A stretch of 64,000 nucleotides of DNA, taken from Saccostrea cucullata. Lineage: Eukaryota. The first letter of the stretch is position 1; each line of letters begins with the position of its first letter. Made by a program: the position numbers. Of the stretch, positions 29,248-35,600 are shown piece by piece. The stretch lies in assembly GCF_032062105.1 (NCBI RefSeq), contig NW_026936980.1:620001-684000 (forward strand), given 5' to 3'.

Positions 29248-32200
29248 AAAAATATTCTTAGGTGAAGAGGATTCAAATTTGTTCAAATGAAGGGCCACGC
29301 CCTTATTCAAGGGGAGATAATTCAGAAATGATGAAAATTTGATCGTATGTTTTAAAAATCTTCTTCTCAAGAACCACTATGCCAGGAAAGATGAAACTTA
29401 TAGGGAAGCATCCTCAGGTAGTGTAGTTTGTTCAAATCATGACCCCCGGGGGTAGGGCGGGGCCACAATGGCTGGTCAAAGTTTTACACAGGAATATATA
29501 GGAATATTTTTTAAAAAAATCTTCTCCAAAACCATTGGGCCAGCAAAGATGAAACTAATGTGGAAGCGTCCTCAGGTAGTGTAGATTCAAATTTGTTCAA
29601 ATCATGACCCCCTGGGGTAGGGCGGGGCCACAATGAGCAATCGAAGTTTTACATAGAAATATATAGGGAAATTCTTTAAAAATCTTCTTCTCAAGAATAG
29701 CAAAGGCATGAATGATCGTATTTATACGGAAGCATCCTCTGTTCATATGGAAACATTCTCAGGTAGTGTAGATTCAATTTTCTTCAAGTTATGACCCCTT
29801 GGGGTAGGGCGGGACCACAATGTAAGTTCAAATGTAAAGGGCAATAAAGCCAAAGGTAGTCAAAGAAATATGCAAGCATCCTTAGTTAGTGTAGATTCAA
29901 GTTTGTTCATATCATACCCTCTCCCTTTTAAGGATTGGATGGGACCACTATTGGGTTTAAACTTTTCAATAATAAACTGATTTCTGCTTTTTTCCTAGCC
30001 ACATTGCTCAGGTGAGCAACGTGGCCCATGGGCCTCTTGTTGTCCTGTCTATCTCTTTGTCTGCAAACTTTAACCTTCGCCATAACTTTTGAACCATGAA
30101 AGTCAGAAACTTCATATTAAATTTGGTATGCATACTCCACTAATAAAGCTCTTTCAAATGACACCAAGGTCAAAGACCTTGTGACTTTGACTGTGACCTA
30201 TATGCTAAAAATAGCTTTCATGTCTTCAAACGTTATCCTTCGCCGTAACTTTTGAACCATGAAAGATATAGACTTCATTTTTGGTATGCGTACTTCACTC
30301 ATTAAGCTCTTTCAAATGACACCACGGTCAATGACCTTGTGACCTTGATTGTGACCTATATGCTAAAAATAGCTTTTTGAACCTTAACCATAACTTTTGA
30401 ACCATGAGAGATATAGAGACTTCATATTTGGTATGCTTATTCCACTAATCAAGTTCTTTCCAATGACACCAAGGTCAATGACTTTGTGACCTTGAAGTTG
30501 ACCTATATGCTAAAAATAGCTGTTTTCGAACTTTGTTGCCGCCGGGCGCATAGTGTTTCACAAACACATCTTGTTTTTATCCTGGACATGGTTGCTTTTT
30601 TTAATTCTTTTTTTCATGTCAACAAATATTTTGAATTTTTCCGGAAGAAAGATATTCCCACGTACCTACCGACCCTATAATTTTACCCTGAGTAGGGATA
30701 GGGCAAACAAATATTAATTTATTTTATTTAGACGGCCTTAGTTATTTTGCATAGACATCAAGCACAGGCACTTGTTTCGGAAATAATCTTTTAATCTTTA
30801 GTATAATAATTATACCATGGGTTAAAAATTTATTTCCGAAACAAGTGTCTGTGACATCAAGCCACAGGTTACTTTTGCAAAGGAAGCGCTAAAACATGAC
30901 GTCACAATAAACGCTTGCGTCAACGCACATGATATGACGCATTCAGTTTACATCATCAGTTTCCTTATTGTGTTGTGTTTTCTTTTAGGCCTACAAGGTA
31001 TGTTGAACCATTCTTTAAAAGAATTCACAATCTATGTTAAACGTGGTTCAGAGCATGATTGGACGCATGTACACCACATGAGGGATATCGATGCATGTAT
31101 TAGGCAAACAAGGAATAGGGCCTACCGTTACATGTATTTAAATAGCCTAAGCTCGAAAATCCATCTTTGGGAGATAGATCTGCATTGCAACTTCCATGGT
31201 CCTGTGTCGCAGTAGGTGCTCGTCCTTTGTGTGAGACCTTCCCGACAAGTTTTTATTGGTTGGAGTTGACTGTAGGACTTTCATATTTCACATGTGTAGC
31301 CTAGTTCAATGTTGTGACAAGACATCTCTTTGGGTACCAAAATATTTGACATCTTGATCTTGAAGCTTAACACATTTTTTAAAAAAAATTACCAAAGTTT
31401 ATTCTTGTCCATACCGGAGCTAGTGTTTTCTTATTTCATATTAAGCGTTTTCCTCAATAAAAGACATTCAAATATGTTTTATCTCATTACCTTGACCTTG
31501 CTGCAGAACTGTAGCCATTGTGCTTTTATAGGCCTATTATATAGCCTATATATATATATAAAATTTTCAAACTTTAGTCATAGCCATAACTTTTCAGTTT
31601 GAAAAGTTGGTGCTAGGCTAGGGCTTTCGTACTTTACACATGTATTCACTGTGACAAGACCTTTAATTGGGTGTATTTTTTTTTTATCTTTTGACCTTGA
31701 ACTTAGAGTTTGACCCACTTTTAAAATAATTTAACCTTGACCATTACTTTTGAATCGTTAGTACTAGGGCTTTCATACTTCACGGGTGTTTACACCGTGT
31801 CAAGACATTCCTTTTGATACCAAGAGTTTGACCCCCACAAAAAAACTTGAACATTGAACATAAATTTTTGACCGTTACGGTTAGTACTAGGGCTTCCATA
31901 TTTCACAGGTGTATTCCTTGTGATAAGACCTTCCTTTGGGTACCAACAATTTTGACCTTTTGAACTTGACCTTGAAGTTTAACTTGCATTTGAGAAATTT
32001 CAACCCACGCCAAAATTTCGACCCTCGCCACAAGCTGTTTGAATGGTTATGGCAAGGCATTTGTATTCCTTATGACAAGACGTTTTATTGGCATCGACTT
32101 TGACATTTGATTTACATTGAAAAAATAGTCTTTGTAATGAAAGGCACATTTTGTTCTTTATGGAAATAGACAGATGTGTAGCGGCGCCCATTTTGAATTC

Positions 32201-32633
32201 TACCCTTAGCCGGACGGGACGTCACAAACGCTGGGAAGATGAAGCATACGACGACTACAGCGGGGGTGAAATTGATTACAAAGAGGAGGTACGTAAATTA
32301 TATCTAATATACTCCACTCTCCTATAGCTTGTGTGGAATTGACTTTGTCATATTTGAAGAACAGGTATACTAATTTACTTGTATTGTAGCAGTTGGAGGA
32401 CAGCTCTTGGTGAGTTGTGCTGTTGGAGGAATGCAAGGGTCTTGTTCTGTTATTTGTTCAAGAAAACTAAAAAAAGCAACTGAAATTTAAACACAATCAC
32501 ATTTAAAATTTCCTTTTAGACTAAGGCCGATTTCAAATGACTTTCAATACGGTATAGACTATTAGTATAGTAGACAGGGGGTGCTTAAATTGCTCTTCCA
32601 TGGAATCTGATCTTATATCAATTTTTTTAACGT

Positions 32634-32668
<35 letters not shown>

Positions 32669-35600
32669 ATTAGATTATACTATGATAATTCTTTCGTTTT
32701 TTTTTTTAAATTATTTTTTTAAATTCTGATTTATAAATTTGTTATTTTCTTTAAAACCACTTTTCCTACAGGTTTGGTCCCATAGTTAAAAAAAAATGCC
32801 ACAAAGGGTTTACTGCTGTTGCTTTAGTTTCAAGTGCAATCTCTTTCGTTCTTTGCAAATAGTTCAAACCAGTTTTTAAAGCTTCAGCACCATCGGATAC
32901 TTCTGGTTATGGTTTGGAGACATAATGTTGTGTAATGGAATTCCGCAATAAGCATTATTTTATTTTCTATTTTATGTGACAGACGGAAGAGGAGGCCAGA
33001 ATTAAGAACTTATTATTAAACTGGGAGAAGCTGGCACTCAAAGCCATCTTTGGTCTCTCCTTCTTCTCGCTGATCTGCATGGTGTGGTACATCTGTTGTA
33101 AGAACTGCTGTAGATATCTGGTGGTGGGCCCTTTGAAGGAGGCCTTTATCGACTATTGGACAAGATTTTGTCCTTGCTGCGTGAAGGACAAACGTAAGAT
33201 ATTCCCATTTTTGCTGCAAATTAATGAATAAAAAATAATATAATGCAAATACATCTACCACTAAATCATCAATTAAATCTCATGTTGTTTTCTGCAAGTT
33301 ATTTTATGTATGTCTTTGTCTTTTATACAGAGTTTCATAGAATGAAAGTTCAAGCCGAGAAGTTTGGCCTGAAGCTAACCCCCTCAACATTCGCTCAACT
33401 GAGGCGCGTGGCGGAACAGGCTGCGGAAACGATGGGGTACGACACCTCAAATCAACCCGCTTACATGTGAGGGTCCAAAACAACGCACAGATACTGGGAA
33501 GCTTGGAAGAATTCCGAAACAATGGACAGATGCTTGTAATTTCTGTAGGATCCAGTCCCGGTCTTATTTTTACAAAGTGAACAGGCATTTTTTGTCTTAT
33601 TTCGAGGTGCACACAAAGTTGTGCAGAATGTTCATCGATAAAAAGTGGGAAATTGGACCTTTTATTTATTTCATTAATACTTGATATGGCGAACATCAAC
33701 TTTTTGACATATGTATACATATTCTGGAGAAAAAATATATCACTGTATATTGAAAACACTTCTGGTCTTTGAAAGCAGTACATGTACTATAGTATGTATT
33801 AGTTTTGTAGAACGGAAGGAAATAAATATAACTGTTAAATGTACCAGTAATAAAATTAATGATGTAGAAATCGATATAATCTAAATCCCCGTATAGCTTT
33901 GAAACGCAGTGGTGAAATTAGAGAAAAATCTTCTGAATTTGCTCTAAGTACATGTAGGTTGTTGTTTTATGCTCTTGTAATCGAAAATTTGGTTCTTTGG
34001 ATATAAATATATTTGACCTTGGAGTTTGACCCACTTTTTGCAAAATTTAACTTTGGTAATAACTTTTAAAAAGTTGATGCTAGGACTTTCTTACTCCACA
34101 TGGGACAAGGCTTTCTTCGGATATCAACAACTTTGACCTTGACCTTAGAGTGTGACCTCCTTTTGAAAAACTTTAACCTTGACCATAACCTTTGAACAGT
34201 TGGTGCTAGGACCTTAATATTTCACATGTGCATTTCTTATAGCAAGATCTTTCCCCAGGTATCTTTGACCTTGACCTTAGAGTTTGACCCACATTAAAAA
34301 ATAACTTTGGCATATCTTTTGAATGGTTGGTGCTTTGGATTTCATATTTCAGAGGTATATCATTGATACACGTCCTTTTTTTAATAACAACACTTTTGAT
34401 CTCTTTACCTTGGAGTTTGACTTGTATTTTAGAAACTTTAACCTTCGCCAAAGCTGCCAAACGGGAACATCAGTGTTACAAACACGTATTGTTTCCTGTG
34501 ATAATGTTCTATTACAGTTTACATTTTATTTTGAACTGAGTTTTTCACCCGTCACATTAAAAGAAAAGTTTAATGCACAAATATGTAGTCTAAATAAGAA
34601 AAATCACAAAAATGTACATGAAGTAAACATTCACAATATATTGAATTTATTGAATAAACGCAAGCCTTTATCAGCTAGATCCCTGTACATGTTTCATGTG
34701 AATCTGGAAAACTTATCATGTACCGACATCACTGTTGGTGTTATCAGGACCGTCCTGTGCATACCGAGAGCCGCGTGATTACTACTGCGTTATAATATGG
34801 ACGGTCAATAGAAGCTTCCGTGTTACTAAAACAGAAGATGATTCAAATGGATTTTAACAACATTGAAAACATTTGATTTATTTATCGGCATCAATAATTC
34901 AATGGTATATATAATGTTTTTGATGGACACGTAACTTGGTCATTTCAATGTTTAAAGCCACGGCTGGATGTGTGTATATGGGTGTCTCGGCGTCAAACTC
35001 TGGAGACCGTGATAAACAATTGGTACCAAAAGTCAAAATTGCTCTAGTAGGTACTTATGCTGTTGGAAAAACATCCATAATAACGAGATACATCCGGGAA
35101 ACGTTTTCTTCTGAGTACATATACACGAGAGGTAAGATAACACAGATGATAAAGGACTAAGTGGAAAACCTTGTTGCAGTCCTTCACTCTATGAACTTTT
35201 TCAGATTATTCAATGACAAACAAAAGGCACTCTCCTGACTCACAATGGCTGCTCTAATGGCTACTGTATTTAATGAGCACTTTTTTCTCTATACATTACT
35301 AAATAAGATGCTTTATCTTGAATTTTAATTATATAGTGGTTCTTGAATTTTTTTTAAAAAGATGCCATTATATCGCAGTTCTTGAATTTTTTTTTTAAAA
35401 GATGCCATTATTATGGAATCTGGATAGGGCCATGCAGTTCACTATAGCAAAATCGAAGTTTGGGTTGATAATGCGATGACGATGAAGCAATGGTGCGATA
35501 ACGATGAAGTTATGTTGCGGTATTGCGATAACGATGAAGTGATGGCGCGATAATGCGATGGCGATGGTGCGATAGCACGATGAAGCGATGGTGCGATAAC

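What the first reader, a model, noticed from the sequence alone, without database searches (positions are those of the whole stretch)
30934..33470. Unrecognised small receptor-like membrane protein between the two Rab8 copies
Seen: four exons, largely missed by the ORF track, join into a signal peptide, a short pro-region with an NST sequon ending RHKR, a ~35-aa acidic ectodomain with YDDY, one TM helix, juxtamembrane CCKNCC, a CPCC motif and a tail ending NQPAYM. Established: R-x-K-R is the furin consensus, Tyr in acidic context is typical of sulfation, juxtamembrane Cys are often palmitoylated, and NPxY-like motifs direct sorting. Inference: a processed tethered ligand, adaptor or trafficking cargo. 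I do not recognise the family. Co-location with Rab8 variants hints at, but does not show, a shared secretory role.
Basis: partly seen in the sequence, partly recalled or inferred. Interest (0 to 1): 0.7.

Follow-up and report, generated by a model that had tools for sequence, protein, structure and literature searches.

The report
Oyster-only small processed membrane protein
A real four-exon oyster gene encodes a small single-pass membrane protein found so far only in oysters, whose best-kept part is a protease cleavage site followed by a short, acidic, tyrosine-rich outer segment; what it does is untested.

Summary
Exons 30934-30997, 32170-32288, 32983-33193 and 33331-33470 (+) have canonical GT/AG borders. 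They are colinear with a 175-aa uncharacterized protein of Saccostrea echinata: 10/21, 35/39, 62/70 and 45/45 identical per exon. The window is oyster DNA, not human.

Four more named oyster proteins, all "uncharacterized", belong to the family. Pfam, PDB, the ESM Atlas and Foldseek gave no credible relative.

All five orthologs keep one R-x-[KR]-R site, a glycosylation sequon 11-12 residues before it, three tyrosines in acidic context, one membrane helix and a cytosolic Cys cluster. The cleavage site and the mature ectodomain are 72-81% identical across four lineages, against 6-45% elsewhere.

The NQPAYM end is not conserved and no NPxY exists. Only the upstream neighbour is Rab8; the downstream one is a divergent Rab-like gene.

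Best reading: a convertase-matured, probably tyrosine-sulfated, tethered polyanionic ectodomain, similar in logic to the N-terminus of PSGL-1 but not homologous to it. The function stays inferred.

I never joined the window's exons; whole-protein analyses used the natural ortholog.

The parts
30897..30904 (+). Perfect TGACGTCA palindrome (CRE-like by recall) 30 bases upstream of the ATG. It is a possible promoter element; function untested.
   Evidence: motif position; sequence
30934..30997 (+). Exon 1: start codon and hydrophobic N-terminus (presumed signal peptide). It ends in phase 1; donor GTATGT.
   Evidence: Best match to residues 1-21 of P0001 (10/21 identical, score 43 against next best 27 of 1223 positions).
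30998..32169 (+). Intron 1, filled with about 125-bp dispersed or tandem repeat units that also occur downstream of the gene.
   Evidence: (families D2, D5, D8, D9, D11)
32170..32288 (+). Exon 2: short pro-region, cleavage site and the first 19 residues of the acidic tyrosine-rich segment.
   Evidence: 35/39 identical to P0001. tblastn E 1.6e-21.
32196..32204 (+). N-glycosylation sequon NST, 11 residues before the cleavage site. A sequon sits 11-12 residues upstream of the site in 5 of 5 orthologs.
32220..32231 (+). RHKR, a furin-type R-x-[KR]-R site followed by Trp. It is the only such site in each of the 5 orthologs. In the 7-residue block ending at the site, 5 of 7 positions are invariant across four lineages.
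32232..32288 (+). Acidic tyrosine-rich segment, exon 2 part (WEDEAYDDYSGGEIDYKEE). It has three Tyr, each with 4-6 Asp/Glu within five residues in the orthologs. It continues as TEEEA at 32983-32997.
   Evidence: net charge -11 to -12
32983..33193 (+). Exon 3: end of the acidic segment, juxtamembrane helix, membrane helix and Cys-rich stretch. It ends in phase 1; donor GTAAGA.
   Evidence: 62/70 identical to P0001. tblastn E 1.9e-42.
32998..33042 (+). Basic amphipathic juxtamembrane segment RIKNLLLNWEKLALK. 10 of 15 positions are invariant across four lineages; net charge +3 to +4 in the orthologs.
   Evidence: Predicted helical in the ortholog model.
33043..33093 (+). Membrane-spanning hydrophobic segment AIFGLSFFSLICMVWYI.
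   Evidence: The Kyte-Doolittle 19-residue mean is 2.35-2.79 at the equivalent place in 5 of 5 orthologs.
33094..33180 (+). Cytosolic Cys-rich stretch (CCKNCC ... CPCC). It holds 7 Cys in the window and 7-9 in the orthologs, 3 of them invariant.
33331..33470 (+). Exon 4: helical tail and stop codon (33468-33470). The end NQPAYM is specific to the Saccostrea lineage.
   Evidence: 45/45 identical to P0001. tblastn E 2.1e-25. Two helices in the ortholog model.
33821..33854 (+). Two AATAAA hexamers (33821 and 33849), candidate polyadenylation signals about 350-380 bases after the stop codon.

Best explanation
This is an intact gene for a small type I single-pass membrane proprotein of about 177 residues. 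The family has been seen so far only in true oysters (Ostreidae).

Shown:
- The exon structure.
- Orthology to five annotated but uncharacterized oyster proteins.
- Conservation is concentrated on the basic cleavage site and the 39 residues between it and the membrane helix.

Inferred mechanism:
1. The N-terminal hydrophobic stretch acts as a signal peptide.
2. The short pro-region, variable in sequence and always carrying a sequon, is N-glycosylated.
3. A furin-type proprotein convertase cuts after RHKR in the late Golgi and removes the pro-region.
4. This exposes a new N-terminus that starts with Trp.
5. Tyrosylprotein sulfotransferase sulfates some or all of the three Tyr in the segment of net charge -12.
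6. The mature protein therefore shows a short tethered polyanionic peptide, held on a basic amphipathic juxtamembrane helix. This is the working end: a docking site or tethered ligand for a basic partner, at the cell surface or inside secretory or endocytic compartments.
7. On the cytosolic side, the dense Cys cluster next to the membrane is S-acylated, and two short helices in the tail bind cytosolic partners.

The logic resembles the N-terminus of PSGL-1, without homology to it.
For: Gene reality:
- Colinear ortholog P0001, E 9.9e-35 for exon 3 alone.
- tblastn HSPs end at the exon edges.
- Per-exon identity is 10/21, 35/39, 62/70 and 45/45.
- All splice sites are canonical.

Family: 5 named oyster proteins, from Saccostrea echinata, Crassostrea virginica, Ostrea edulis, Magallana gigas and Crassostrea angulata.

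Architecture kept in 5 of 5 orthologs:
- One R-x-[KR]-R site.
- A sequon 11-12 residues before it.
- Three Tyr with 4-6 acidic and 0-1 basic residues within five positions. Two of them have Asp at -1 (contexts).
- One strong hydrophobic segment besides the N-terminal one.
- 7-9 Cys after it.

Mean pairwise identity across four lineages:
- Cleavage block 81%, acidic segment 72%, juxtamembrane helix 80%.
- Signal peptide 28%, pro-region 30%, membrane helix 33%, Cys-rich stretch 28%, tail 45%, C-terminal end 6%.

A lumenal location of the pro-region is supported by the kept sequon, and by its expansion to 4 sequons in M. gigas and 11 in C. angulata.

The enzymes exist and act on similar motifs in oysters:
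- The neuropeptide Cragi-CCK1 is mono- and di-sulfated on a W-D-Y-D-Y-G type motif in vivo, and TPST is expressed (PMC6219549, passages).
- Oyster big defensins have a 13-residue propeptide that ends in an R-x-K-R motif, and a furin-like convertase is found among oyster ESTs (PMC3182236, passages).

PSGL-1 combines a signal peptide, a PACE/furin-cleaved propeptide and N-terminal sulfated Tyr (PMC2174952, passages).
Against: - No modification has been observed; every processing step rests on motifs and their conservation.
- No signal-peptide, convertase or sulfation predictor was available. The signal peptide's n-region has no Lys or Arg in the window.
- The flank before the membrane helix is more basic (+3 to +4) than the flank after it. 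Taken alone, the positive-inside rule (recalled) would put that flank in the cytosol.
- Trp right after the cleavage site is not a typical furin P1' residue (recalled).
- The structural model is of low confidence (mean pLDDT 61.8, pTM 0.30) and found no fold relative (0 of 8 matches at E <= 0.001).
- No partner, expression pattern or location is known.
- The restriction to oysters is weakly established. The whole-library search with exon 3 did not return even the known orthologs P0002, P0005 and P0006, so it could not have seen more distant ones.
Confidence: 0.5

Rival explanations
1. It is an accessory or regulatory subunit of a membrane complex such as a channel, transporter or enzyme. It would act through its juxtamembrane helix and membrane helix. 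The acidic segment would then be a secondary feature.
For: The most invariant run in the family is the juxtamembrane helix: 10 of 15 positions across four lineages, and N, W, E, K, L, A, L invariant in 6 of 6 aligned sequences. Three membrane-helix positions are invariant in all six. The model shows one continuous helix from the end of the acidic segment through the membrane (residues 61-121). The Atlas leads, all below 0.9, are small single-pass proteins (TMIE, SMIM5_18_22).
Against: The membrane helix itself is poorly conserved (33% mean identity, 3 of 17 invariant). This is unusual for a subunit that packs inside the membrane. The reading does not explain why the cleavage site and the acidic Tyr segment are kept at 81% and 72%. 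No Pfam model of small accessory subunits matched. The Atlas scores of 0.76-0.83 are in the range that shuffled proteins reach.
Confidence: 0.2
2. It is a cation-handling membrane protein. The acidic, possibly sulfated, lumenal segment would bind Ca2+ or other cations. The Cys-rich (Cys/His-rich in Ostrea) cytosolic stretch would bind metals rather than being acylated. The role could relate to oyster-specific shell formation or metal storage.
For: The outer segment has net charge -11 to -12 over 24 residues. There are 7-9 Cys in about 30 residues, with CxxC-type spacings in 5 of 5 orthologs and His beside Cys in the Ostrea protein. The family has been seen only in oysters.
Against: Cys positions are mostly not conserved (3 invariant). 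That suits acylation density better than a fixed metal site. A 24-residue acidic stretch is short compared with known acidic shell-matrix proteins (recalled). This reading gives no reason for the invariant cleavage site. There are no expression data for mantle or storage tissues.
Confidence: 0.1
3. The topology is the opposite, or there is no processing. The N-terminal hydrophobic stretch would be an uncleaved anchor with the loop in the cytosol. The basic site, sequon and acidic Tyr cluster would then never meet convertases, glycosyltransferases or TPST, and the Cys-rich part would face the lumen and form disulfides.
For: The flank before the second hydrophobic segment is the more basic one (+3 to +4). 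The n-region of the first segment lacks Lys or Arg in the window. No predictor or experiment fixes the topology.
Against: A sequon is kept 11-12 residues before the basic site in 5 of 5 orthologs, in an otherwise unconserved region, and it multiplies to 4 and 11 sequons in the Magallana-type proteins. That is expected only for a lumenal segment. The first hydrophobic stretch sits at the very N-terminus in all five.
Confidence: 0.1
4. It is a precursor whose useful product is the released N-terminal glycopeptide, with the membrane part serving only as a carrier.
For: A convertase site separates an N-terminal piece from the rest. The C. angulata protein has further basic clusters inside its long pro-region.
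Against: The pro-region is the least constrained part: 30% mean identity and 0 of 9 positions invariant. Its length runs from about 13 residues to more than 150. No Gly plus dibasic amidation signal is present in any ortholog or window exon.
Confidence: 0.04
5. It is not a functional gene: a chance ORF chain or a pseudogene.
For: The bacterial-style ORF list misses most of it. No transcript evidence was available here.
Against: The frame is intact and the splice sites are canonical. Exon 4 is 45/45 identical and exon 3 is 62/70 identical to the S. echinata protein. Orthologs exist in five species of four genera.
Confidence: 0.01

Closest known systems
Uncharacterized oyster proteins LOC133193158 (Saccostrea echinata), LOC111111166 (Crassostrea virginica), LOC125660991 (Ostrea edulis), LOC128173623 (Crassostrea angulata) and UniProt A0A8W8NZZ3 (Magallana gigas)
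   Same: They are true homologues and colinear over all four exons. They share the cleavage site, the three acidic-context Tyr, the juxtamembrane helix, the membrane helix, the Cys cluster and the tail helices.
   Different: The window's protein is closest to the S. echinata one (89% in exon 3) but not identical. The Magallana-type proteins carry a much longer, Thr/Asn-rich pro-region with many sequons. The tail Tyr-x-Gln-Leu of 4 of the 5 orthologs reads Phe-Ala-Gln-Leu in the Saccostrea ortholog P0001 and in the window. None has a described function, and no paper in the library holds any of the five identifiers.
[quoted passage not shown]
   Same: The order of parts is the same: signal peptide, a short propeptide ending in R-x-[RK]-R and cut by PACE/furin, a mature N-terminus with sulfated Tyr in an acidic context, a single membrane helix and a cytoplasmic tail (PMC2174952, passages).
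   Different: There is no sequence similarity: no hit in any search. There is no T[DE]PP[DE] O-glycosylation motif. There is no mucin-like domain of 250-280 residues; the mature ectodomain is 39 residues. There is no extracellular juxtamembrane Cys. In PSGL-1 the propeptide site is missing in 5 of 14 mammals, whereas here it is kept in 5 of 5.
Oyster big defensin precursors (Cg-BigDef)
   Same: They are an oyster precedent for a very short propeptide (13 residues) that ends in a conserved R-x-K-R motif. The motif is assigned to a furin-like convertase found in oyster ESTs (PMC3182236, passages).
   Different: They are secreted antimicrobial peptides with a defensin fold, not membrane proteins, and they are not homologous.
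Oyster CCK/sulfakinin-type peptide Cragi-CCK1
   Same: Its W-D-Y-D-Y-G type core, shown by mass spectrometry to be mono- and di-sulfated in oyster ganglia (PMC6219549, passages), resembles by eye the Trp, acidic, Y-D-D-Y, Ser/Gly-Gly start of the mature ectodomain here.
   Different: No Gly plus dibasic amidation signal and no C-terminal RF-amide type end follow the Tyr cluster. The segment runs on into a membrane helix. I compared them by eye only, because the peptide could not be sent to a tool. The resemblance may be no more than the shared sulfation context.
Sortilin propeptide (recalled, not tested)
   Same: A furin-cut propeptide on a type I membrane protein that keeps the binding site masked until the late Golgi. 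This is a possible model for why the cleavage site is conserved.
   Different: Sortilin has a large VPS10 domain and no homology. This comparison rests on recall. The one listed paper that mentions sortilin was seen only in the search listing.

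Membership tests
Unnamed ostreid family (LOC133193158 and relatives) | Colinear sequence similarity over the whole protein | tested here: met
   Exon-wise identity to P0001 is 10/21, 35/39, 62/70 and 45/45. tblastn HSPs cover exons 2-4. The profile search returns 5 named oyster proteins at E 2e-120 to 8e-40.
Unnamed ostreid family (LOC133193158 and relatives) | Single R-x-[KR]-R site followed by Trp and a three-Tyr acidic segment, then the invariant juxtamembrane run | tested here: met
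   Present in window exons 2 and 3 and in 5 of 5 orthologs.
PSGL-1 | Signal peptide, PACE/furin-type propeptide site, and acidic N-terminal Tyr | tested here: met
   The motifs are present. The features are as described in PMC2174952. The modifications themselves cannot be tested here.
PSGL-1 | T[DE]PP[DE] motif for core-2 O-glycosylation of an N-terminal Thr | tested here: not met
   0 matches in 5 orthologs and 3 window exons.
PSGL-1 | Mucin-like domain of about 250-280 residues, and an extracellular juxtamembrane Cys for dimerisation | tested here: not met
   The mature ectodomain is 39 residues and has no Cys. The Thr/Asn-rich repeats of the Magallana-type proteins lie before the cleavage site, not after it.
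PSGL-1 | Sequence homology | tested here: not met
   No PSGL-1 or related hit in Pfam or PDB searches.
FXYD ion-transport regulators (considered from recall) | F-x-Y-D motif just before the membrane helix, and a match to the Pfam family model | tested here: not met
   No F.YD match. No Pfam hit of that family for the exons, P0001 or any of the 6 alignment members.
CCK/sulfakinin-type neuropeptide precursors | Sulfated Tyr core followed by a C-terminal amidation signal (Gly plus dibasic) that releases a short amidated peptide | tested here: not met
   A Tyr core of similar type is present. No G[KR][KR] occurs in any ortholog or window exon. The segment continues into a membrane helix.
Small single-pass families suggested by the Atlas (TMIE PF16038, SMIM5_18_22 PF15831, gpUL132 PF11359, Prominin PF05478) | Match to the Pfam model at or above its cut-off | tested here: not met
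   Atlas scores are 0.75-0.83, so leads only. None of these models matched in hmmscan.
   0 NP.Y matches. In the last 12 residues, 0 of 12 positions are invariant.

The most novel reading that the evidence does not exclude
An oyster-lineage invention: a protease-activated, membrane-tethered sulfotyrosine peptide. Convertase cleavage would unmask a Trp-started, di- or tri-sulfated N-terminus that copies the sulfated core of the oyster's own CCK/sulfakinin-type peptide. It would act as a tethered ligand, co-receptor or decoy for proteins that read sulfotyrosine, such as CCK-type receptors or basic immune or adhesion lectins. The glycosylated pro-region would serve as a removable mask. This would be a single-pass, non-GPCR counterpart of tethered-agonist signalling, built from scratch in one bivalve family.
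Probability: 0.06. Interest if true: 0.65.

Novelty: new variant of a known kind. Interest (0 to 1): 0.35.

Why it matters
It adds a well-supported gene model that a simple ORF track misses. It also defines a small protein family, so far seen only in oysters, that has no name, no Pfam model and no publication under the identifiers I searched.

The conservation pattern points to the cleavage site and the 39-residue ectodomain as the parts under selection. That gives a concrete starting point for describing a lineage-restricted cell-surface or secretory-pathway component. Oysters are a group where immunity, shell formation and larval settlement depend heavily on lineage-specific genes.

If the tethered sulfotyrosine reading is right, it would be an independent reinvention of the module known from PSGL-1 and from chemokine-receptor N-termini. 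If not, it remains an ordinary uncharacterized small membrane protein.

Tried and rejected
- **Pfam, per exon:** exons 2-4 gave only DUF4597 at E 0.21 for exon 2.
- **Pfam, ortholog P0001:** only FAM193_C at E 0.02, 15.1 bits against a cut-off of 27.
- **Pfam, all 6 alignment members:** PBP1_TM in 2 of 6, DUF1189 in 1 of 6, DUF3810 in 1 of 6. I treat these as noise.
- **PDB by sequence:** exons 2, 3 and 4, P0001 and the family profile gave nothing better than E 0.2.
- **ESM Atlas:** the whole ortholog scored 0.83 at best, and residues 34-100 scored 0.79. Both are in the range of shuffled proteins.
- **Structure:** the AlphaFold2 model of P0001 with 6 sequences has pLDDT 61.8 and pTM 0.30. Foldseek against PDB gave 8 matches, none at E <= 0.001. 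I did not search the viral fold library, because the model is too weak.
- **Whole-library phmmer with exon 3:** 2 hits. One is P0001. The other, P0003, is a 252-aa internally repeated protein that matches only the hydrophobic-plus-CC part in 5 stretches. I rejected it as compositional and left it out of all alignments and counts.
- **P0007 (unnamed source, 150 aa):** it is exon 3 of a Magallana-like species with read-through into intron-like sequence on both sides. I kept it in alignment A2 but dropped it from the five-ortholog and four-lineage counts. P0004 was also left out of the four-lineage identities, because it is nearly the same as P0002.
- **Other copies in the window:** none found.
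- **Antisense ORF 33304-33783 and ORF 34323-34778:** no Pfam family.
- **RNA genes:** 0 Rfam families at gathering score and 0 tRNAs in the window.
- **Amphipathicity of the juxtamembrane helix:** only marginal; 5.6% of shuffles reach the observed moment.
- **Literature:** 0 papers hold any of the five identifiers. A search on oyster orphan genes found nothing relevant in its listing.
- **Not done:** Exon 1 (21 residues) is too short for those tools.

Full report
**What is there.** The window is AT-rich eukaryotic DNA (GC 0.32-0.40) with no N. On the plus strand, four segments read as the first-stage reader said.
- 30934-30997: ATG and a hydrophobic N-terminus.
- 32170-32288: an NST sequon, RHKR, and an acidic run with YDDY and a third Tyr.
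- 32983-33193: the end of the acidic run, a basic amphipathic stretch, a 17-residue hydrophobic segment, CCKNCC and CPCC.
- 33331-33470: a tail that ends NQPAYM, then the stop codon.

The donors are GTATGT, GTACGT and GTAAGA, and the acceptors are all AG. The phases are 1, 0, 1, and the split codons read D and Q. The bacterial-style ORF list shows only fragments, as expected for a spliced gene.

**Is it real?** A search of the large protein collection with exon 3 alone, allowing longer proteins, returned 1 protein at E <= 0.01 among 18 candidates. This is P0001, "uncharacterized protein LOC133193158 [Saccostrea echinata]": 175 aa, 89% identical over the whole exon, E 9.9e-35.
- Its sequence runs straight through junctions 2 and 3, including the Q of the split codon.
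- tblastn of P0001 against the window gives three strong HSPs, at E 1.6e-21, 1.9e-42 and 2.1e-25. Their similarity ends at the proposed exon borders, and there is no second copy in the window.
- Exon by exon, 35/39, 62/70 and 45/45 residues are identical.
- Exon 1 is too short for BLAST. It is still the best ungapped match to the first 21 residues of P0001 among 1223 stop-free positions between 27200 and 32170: 10/21 identical, score 43 against a next best of 27.
- Junction 1 is the least directly supported, because the window has two residues more than P0001 there. The next AG downstream gives an in-frame stop (read).

The window is therefore oyster DNA, from a close relative of S. echinata, and not human. 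Whole-protein work used the natural ortholog P0001. The window's own full-length product was therefore never searched as a whole.

**The family.**
- A search with P0001 found 2 proteins among 26 candidates.
- A profile of P0001 plus the Magallana gigas protein found 6 proteins at E <= 0.1 among 2609 candidates.
- Five of the six are named, all "uncharacterized": S. echinata, Crassostrea virginica (LOC111111166), Ostrea edulis (LOC125660991), Crassostrea angulata (LOC128173623) and M. gigas (A0A8W8NZZ3).
- The sixth, P0007, comes from an unnamed source. It is exon 3 of a Magallana-like oyster with read-through into intron-like sequence on both sides. It supports the borders of exon 3 but is not a transcript. 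I left it out of the ortholog counts.
- The whole-library phmmer search with exon 3 gave 2 hits at E <= 0.001. One is P0001. The other, P0003, is an internally repeated protein that matches only the hydrophobic-plus-CC part, and I rejected it.
- That search did not return the known orthologs P0002, P0005 and P0006. It therefore says little about more distant relatives, and the restriction to oysters is provisional.

No paper in the library holds any of the five identifiers.

**No known family.**
- Pfam gave nothing above noise for exons 2-4, for P0001 or for the six alignment members.
- PDB sequence searches gave nothing better than E 0.2, whether with exons 2, 3 and 4, with P0001 or with the family profile.
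- The ESM Atlas gave 0.83 at best for the whole ortholog and 0.79 for residues 34-100. Both are within the range of shuffled proteins.
- The AlphaFold2 model of P0001 is weak: pLDDT 61.8, pTM 0.30.
  - It shows one long helix from the end of the acidic run through the membrane and the Cys-rich stretch (residues 61-121).
  - It shows two tail helices, 129-140 and 147-163.
- Foldseek against PDB found 8 matches, none at E <= 0.001.

**Anatomy and conservation.** Each of the five named orthologs has the following:
- a hydrophobic N-terminus;
- exactly one R-x-[KR]-R site, followed by Trp;
- an N-x-[ST] sequon 11-12 residues before it;
- three Tyr with 4-6 acidic and 0-1 basic residues within five positions, two of them with Asp at -1;
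- one strong hydrophobic segment;
- 7-9 Cys in the roughly 30 residues after it.

Mean pairwise identity across four lineages (Saccostrea, C. virginica, Ostrea, Magallana):

| Region | Mean identity | Invariant positions |
|---|---|---|
| 7-residue block ending at the cleavage site | 81% | 5/7 |
| Acidic Tyr segment | 72% | 12/24 |
| Juxtamembrane helix | 80% | 10/15 |
| Signal peptide | 28% | 1/24 |
| Pro-region | 30% | 0/9 |
| Membrane helix | 33% | 3/17 |
| Cys-rich stretch | 28% | 3/31 |
| Tail | 45% | 9/36 |
| Last 12 residues | 6% | 0/12 |

- The acidic segment has net charge -11 to -12, and the helix after it +3 to +4.
- The pro-region varies from about 13 residues to more than 150. In the Magallana-type proteins it is a Thr/Asn-rich repeat with 4 and 11 sequons.
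- The exons map onto modules: signal peptide; pro-region, site and acidic segment; helix, membrane helix and Cys cluster; tail.

- NQPAYM is not an NPxY motif, and none occurs in any ortholog or window exon. The end is specific to the Saccostrea lineage.
- In 4 of 5 orthologs the tail has a Tyr-x-Gln-Leu that fits YxxPhi. The Saccostrea ortholog P0001 and the window have Phe-Ala-Gln-Leu there.
- The window's exon 3 has a YLVV just after the first Cys group.

**Neighbours.**
- The minus-strand gene at 23585-27116 is Rab8. Rab-8A is the top PDB hit for its first exon at E 1.3e-23, and for its last-listed exon at E 1.4e-15 against 1.3e-8 for Rab-10.
- Its first coding exon lies 3.8 kb from the ATG of the small gene, head to head. 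The interval holds tandem repeats.
- A further Ras-family P-loop ORF lies at 28126-28320 on the minus strand. It is 53% identical to Rab8 exon 1, and its PDB hits are generic Rab proteins.
- The downstream plus-strand gene (35035-39274) belongs to the Ras family. Its exons hit Rab6, Rab38, Rab32 and Rab26 only weakly.
- "Two Rab8 copies" is therefore not borne out for the downstream gene. Whether the linkage to Rab8 is kept in other oysters could not be tested.

**How it most likely works.** The shown facts are the gene, its orthologs and the conservation pattern. The following scheme is inferred.
1. The protein enters the ER through its N-terminal signal peptide, and the pro-region is N-glycosylated.
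2. In the late Golgi, a furin-type convertase cuts after RHKR, and tyrosylprotein sulfotransferase sulfates the acidic-context Tyr.
3. The mature protein shows a 24-residue polyanionic peptide that starts with Trp, on a basic amphipathic helix next to the membrane.
4. The cytosolic Cys cluster is S-acylated, and the helical tail binds cytosolic partners.

Selection falls on the site and the ectodomain rather than on the membrane helix. I therefore take the ectodomain to be the working end: a docking site or tethered ligand for a basic partner.

Support from oysters themselves:
- The peptide Cragi-CCK1 carries a W-D-Y-D-Y-G type core that is mono- and di-sulfated in vivo, with TPST expressed (PMC6219549, passages).
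- Big defensins have a 13-residue propeptide that ends in R-x-K-R, and a furin-like convertase is present in oyster ESTs (PMC3182236, passages).
- A survey of kexin-like convertases included C. gigas (bioRxiv 10.1101/802215, two passages).

The closest known logic is the N-terminus of PSGL-1 (PMC2174952, passages), but four of its defining features fail here (see the membership table).

The rules of thumb for sulfation context, for acylation of juxtamembrane Cys and for the positive-inside rule are recalled established knowledge, not tool results.

**Against this reading.**
- No modification has been observed, and no predictor was available.
- The outer flank of the membrane helix is the more basic one.
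- Trp after the site is not typical for furin (recalled).
- The amphipathic moment of the helix is only marginal, with 5.6% of shuffles reaching it.

The rivals are set out with their weights in the Rival explanations section: an accessory subunit, a cation or metal binder, inverted topology, a released pro-peptide, and no gene at all.

**Verdict.** This is a genuine, intact gene of a small, unnamed, oyster-restricted family. It is already present as "uncharacterized protein" in the annotations of sister species. Its parts are all of known kinds, combined in a way not described for any characterised family. Interest is moderate to low. It would rise if the tethered sulfotyrosine ligand reading, or a conserved linkage to Rab8, were borne out by transcript, proteomic and synteny data.

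Noticed in passing
window 23585-27116 (-): A Rab8 orthologue lies head to head with the small gene. Rab-8A is the top PDB hit for two of its exons, with a clear margin over Rab-10. Exon-bearing ORFs lie at 26970-27116, 25040-25180, 23989-24153 and 23585-23746.
   Followed up: partly
window 28126-28320 (-): An extra Ras-family P-loop/switch-I ORF with its own ATG lies 1 kb upstream of Rab8's first coding exon, on the same strand. It is 53% identical to that exon, and its PDB hits are generic Rab proteins. It could be an alternative first exon of Rab8, or the remnant or start of another Rab gene.
   Followed up: partly
window 35035-39274 (+): A divergent Rab-like gene lies downstream of the small gene. 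Its switch II reads DTGGQ where the window's Rab8 reads DTAGQ (36359-36436). It gives only weak hits to Rab6, Rab38, Rab32 and Rab26. Its introns hold coding-looking tandem repeats (ORFs at 37776-38803).
   Followed up: partly
window 11530-15550 (+): This is a third Ras-family gene (exons at 11530-11616, 12425-12568 and 15296-15550; Pfam Ras). One intron holds a long minisatellite at about 12938-14685 that gives repetitive ORFs on both strands.
   Followed up: partly
window 10173-10445 (-): A 90-aa ORF whose start looks, by recall only, like the N-terminus of a histidine-triad (HINT) protein. Pfam gave no family at E <= 0.01.
   Followed up: partly
window 29354-29697, 30055-30521, 31260-32060, 34006-34450: Families of 125-165-bp tandem or dispersed repeat units fill the interval towards Rab8, intron 1 of the small gene and the region after its 3' end. 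They are probably a satellite- or MITE-like element of this genome.
   Followed up: no
window 30763-30853: A near-perfect hairpin with 45-nt arms (84% complementary, 1 nt between the arms) lies about 80 bases upstream of the ATG. A perfect TGACGTCA follows at 30897-30904.
   Followed up: no
window 50739-52286 (+): A 515-aa ORF with a reverse-transcriptase domain (Pfam RVT_1, E 1.6e-26). I take it for a piece of a retrotransposon, of non-LTR type by recall. I only scanned it as it stands; its completeness was not examined.
   Followed up: no
proteins P0002 and P0004 (M. gigas and C. angulata orthologs): The pro-region before the cleavage site has grown by Thr/Asn-rich repeats, to 4 and 11 sequons. 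A 105-residue block is present in one protein and absent from the other, and extra basic clusters lie inside it. The rest of the two proteins is almost identical.
   Followed up: partly
window 33304-33783 (-): A 159-aa ATG ORF lies antisense to exon 4 and the 3' region. It has no Pfam family, and I take it to be a chance ORF.
   Followed up: partly
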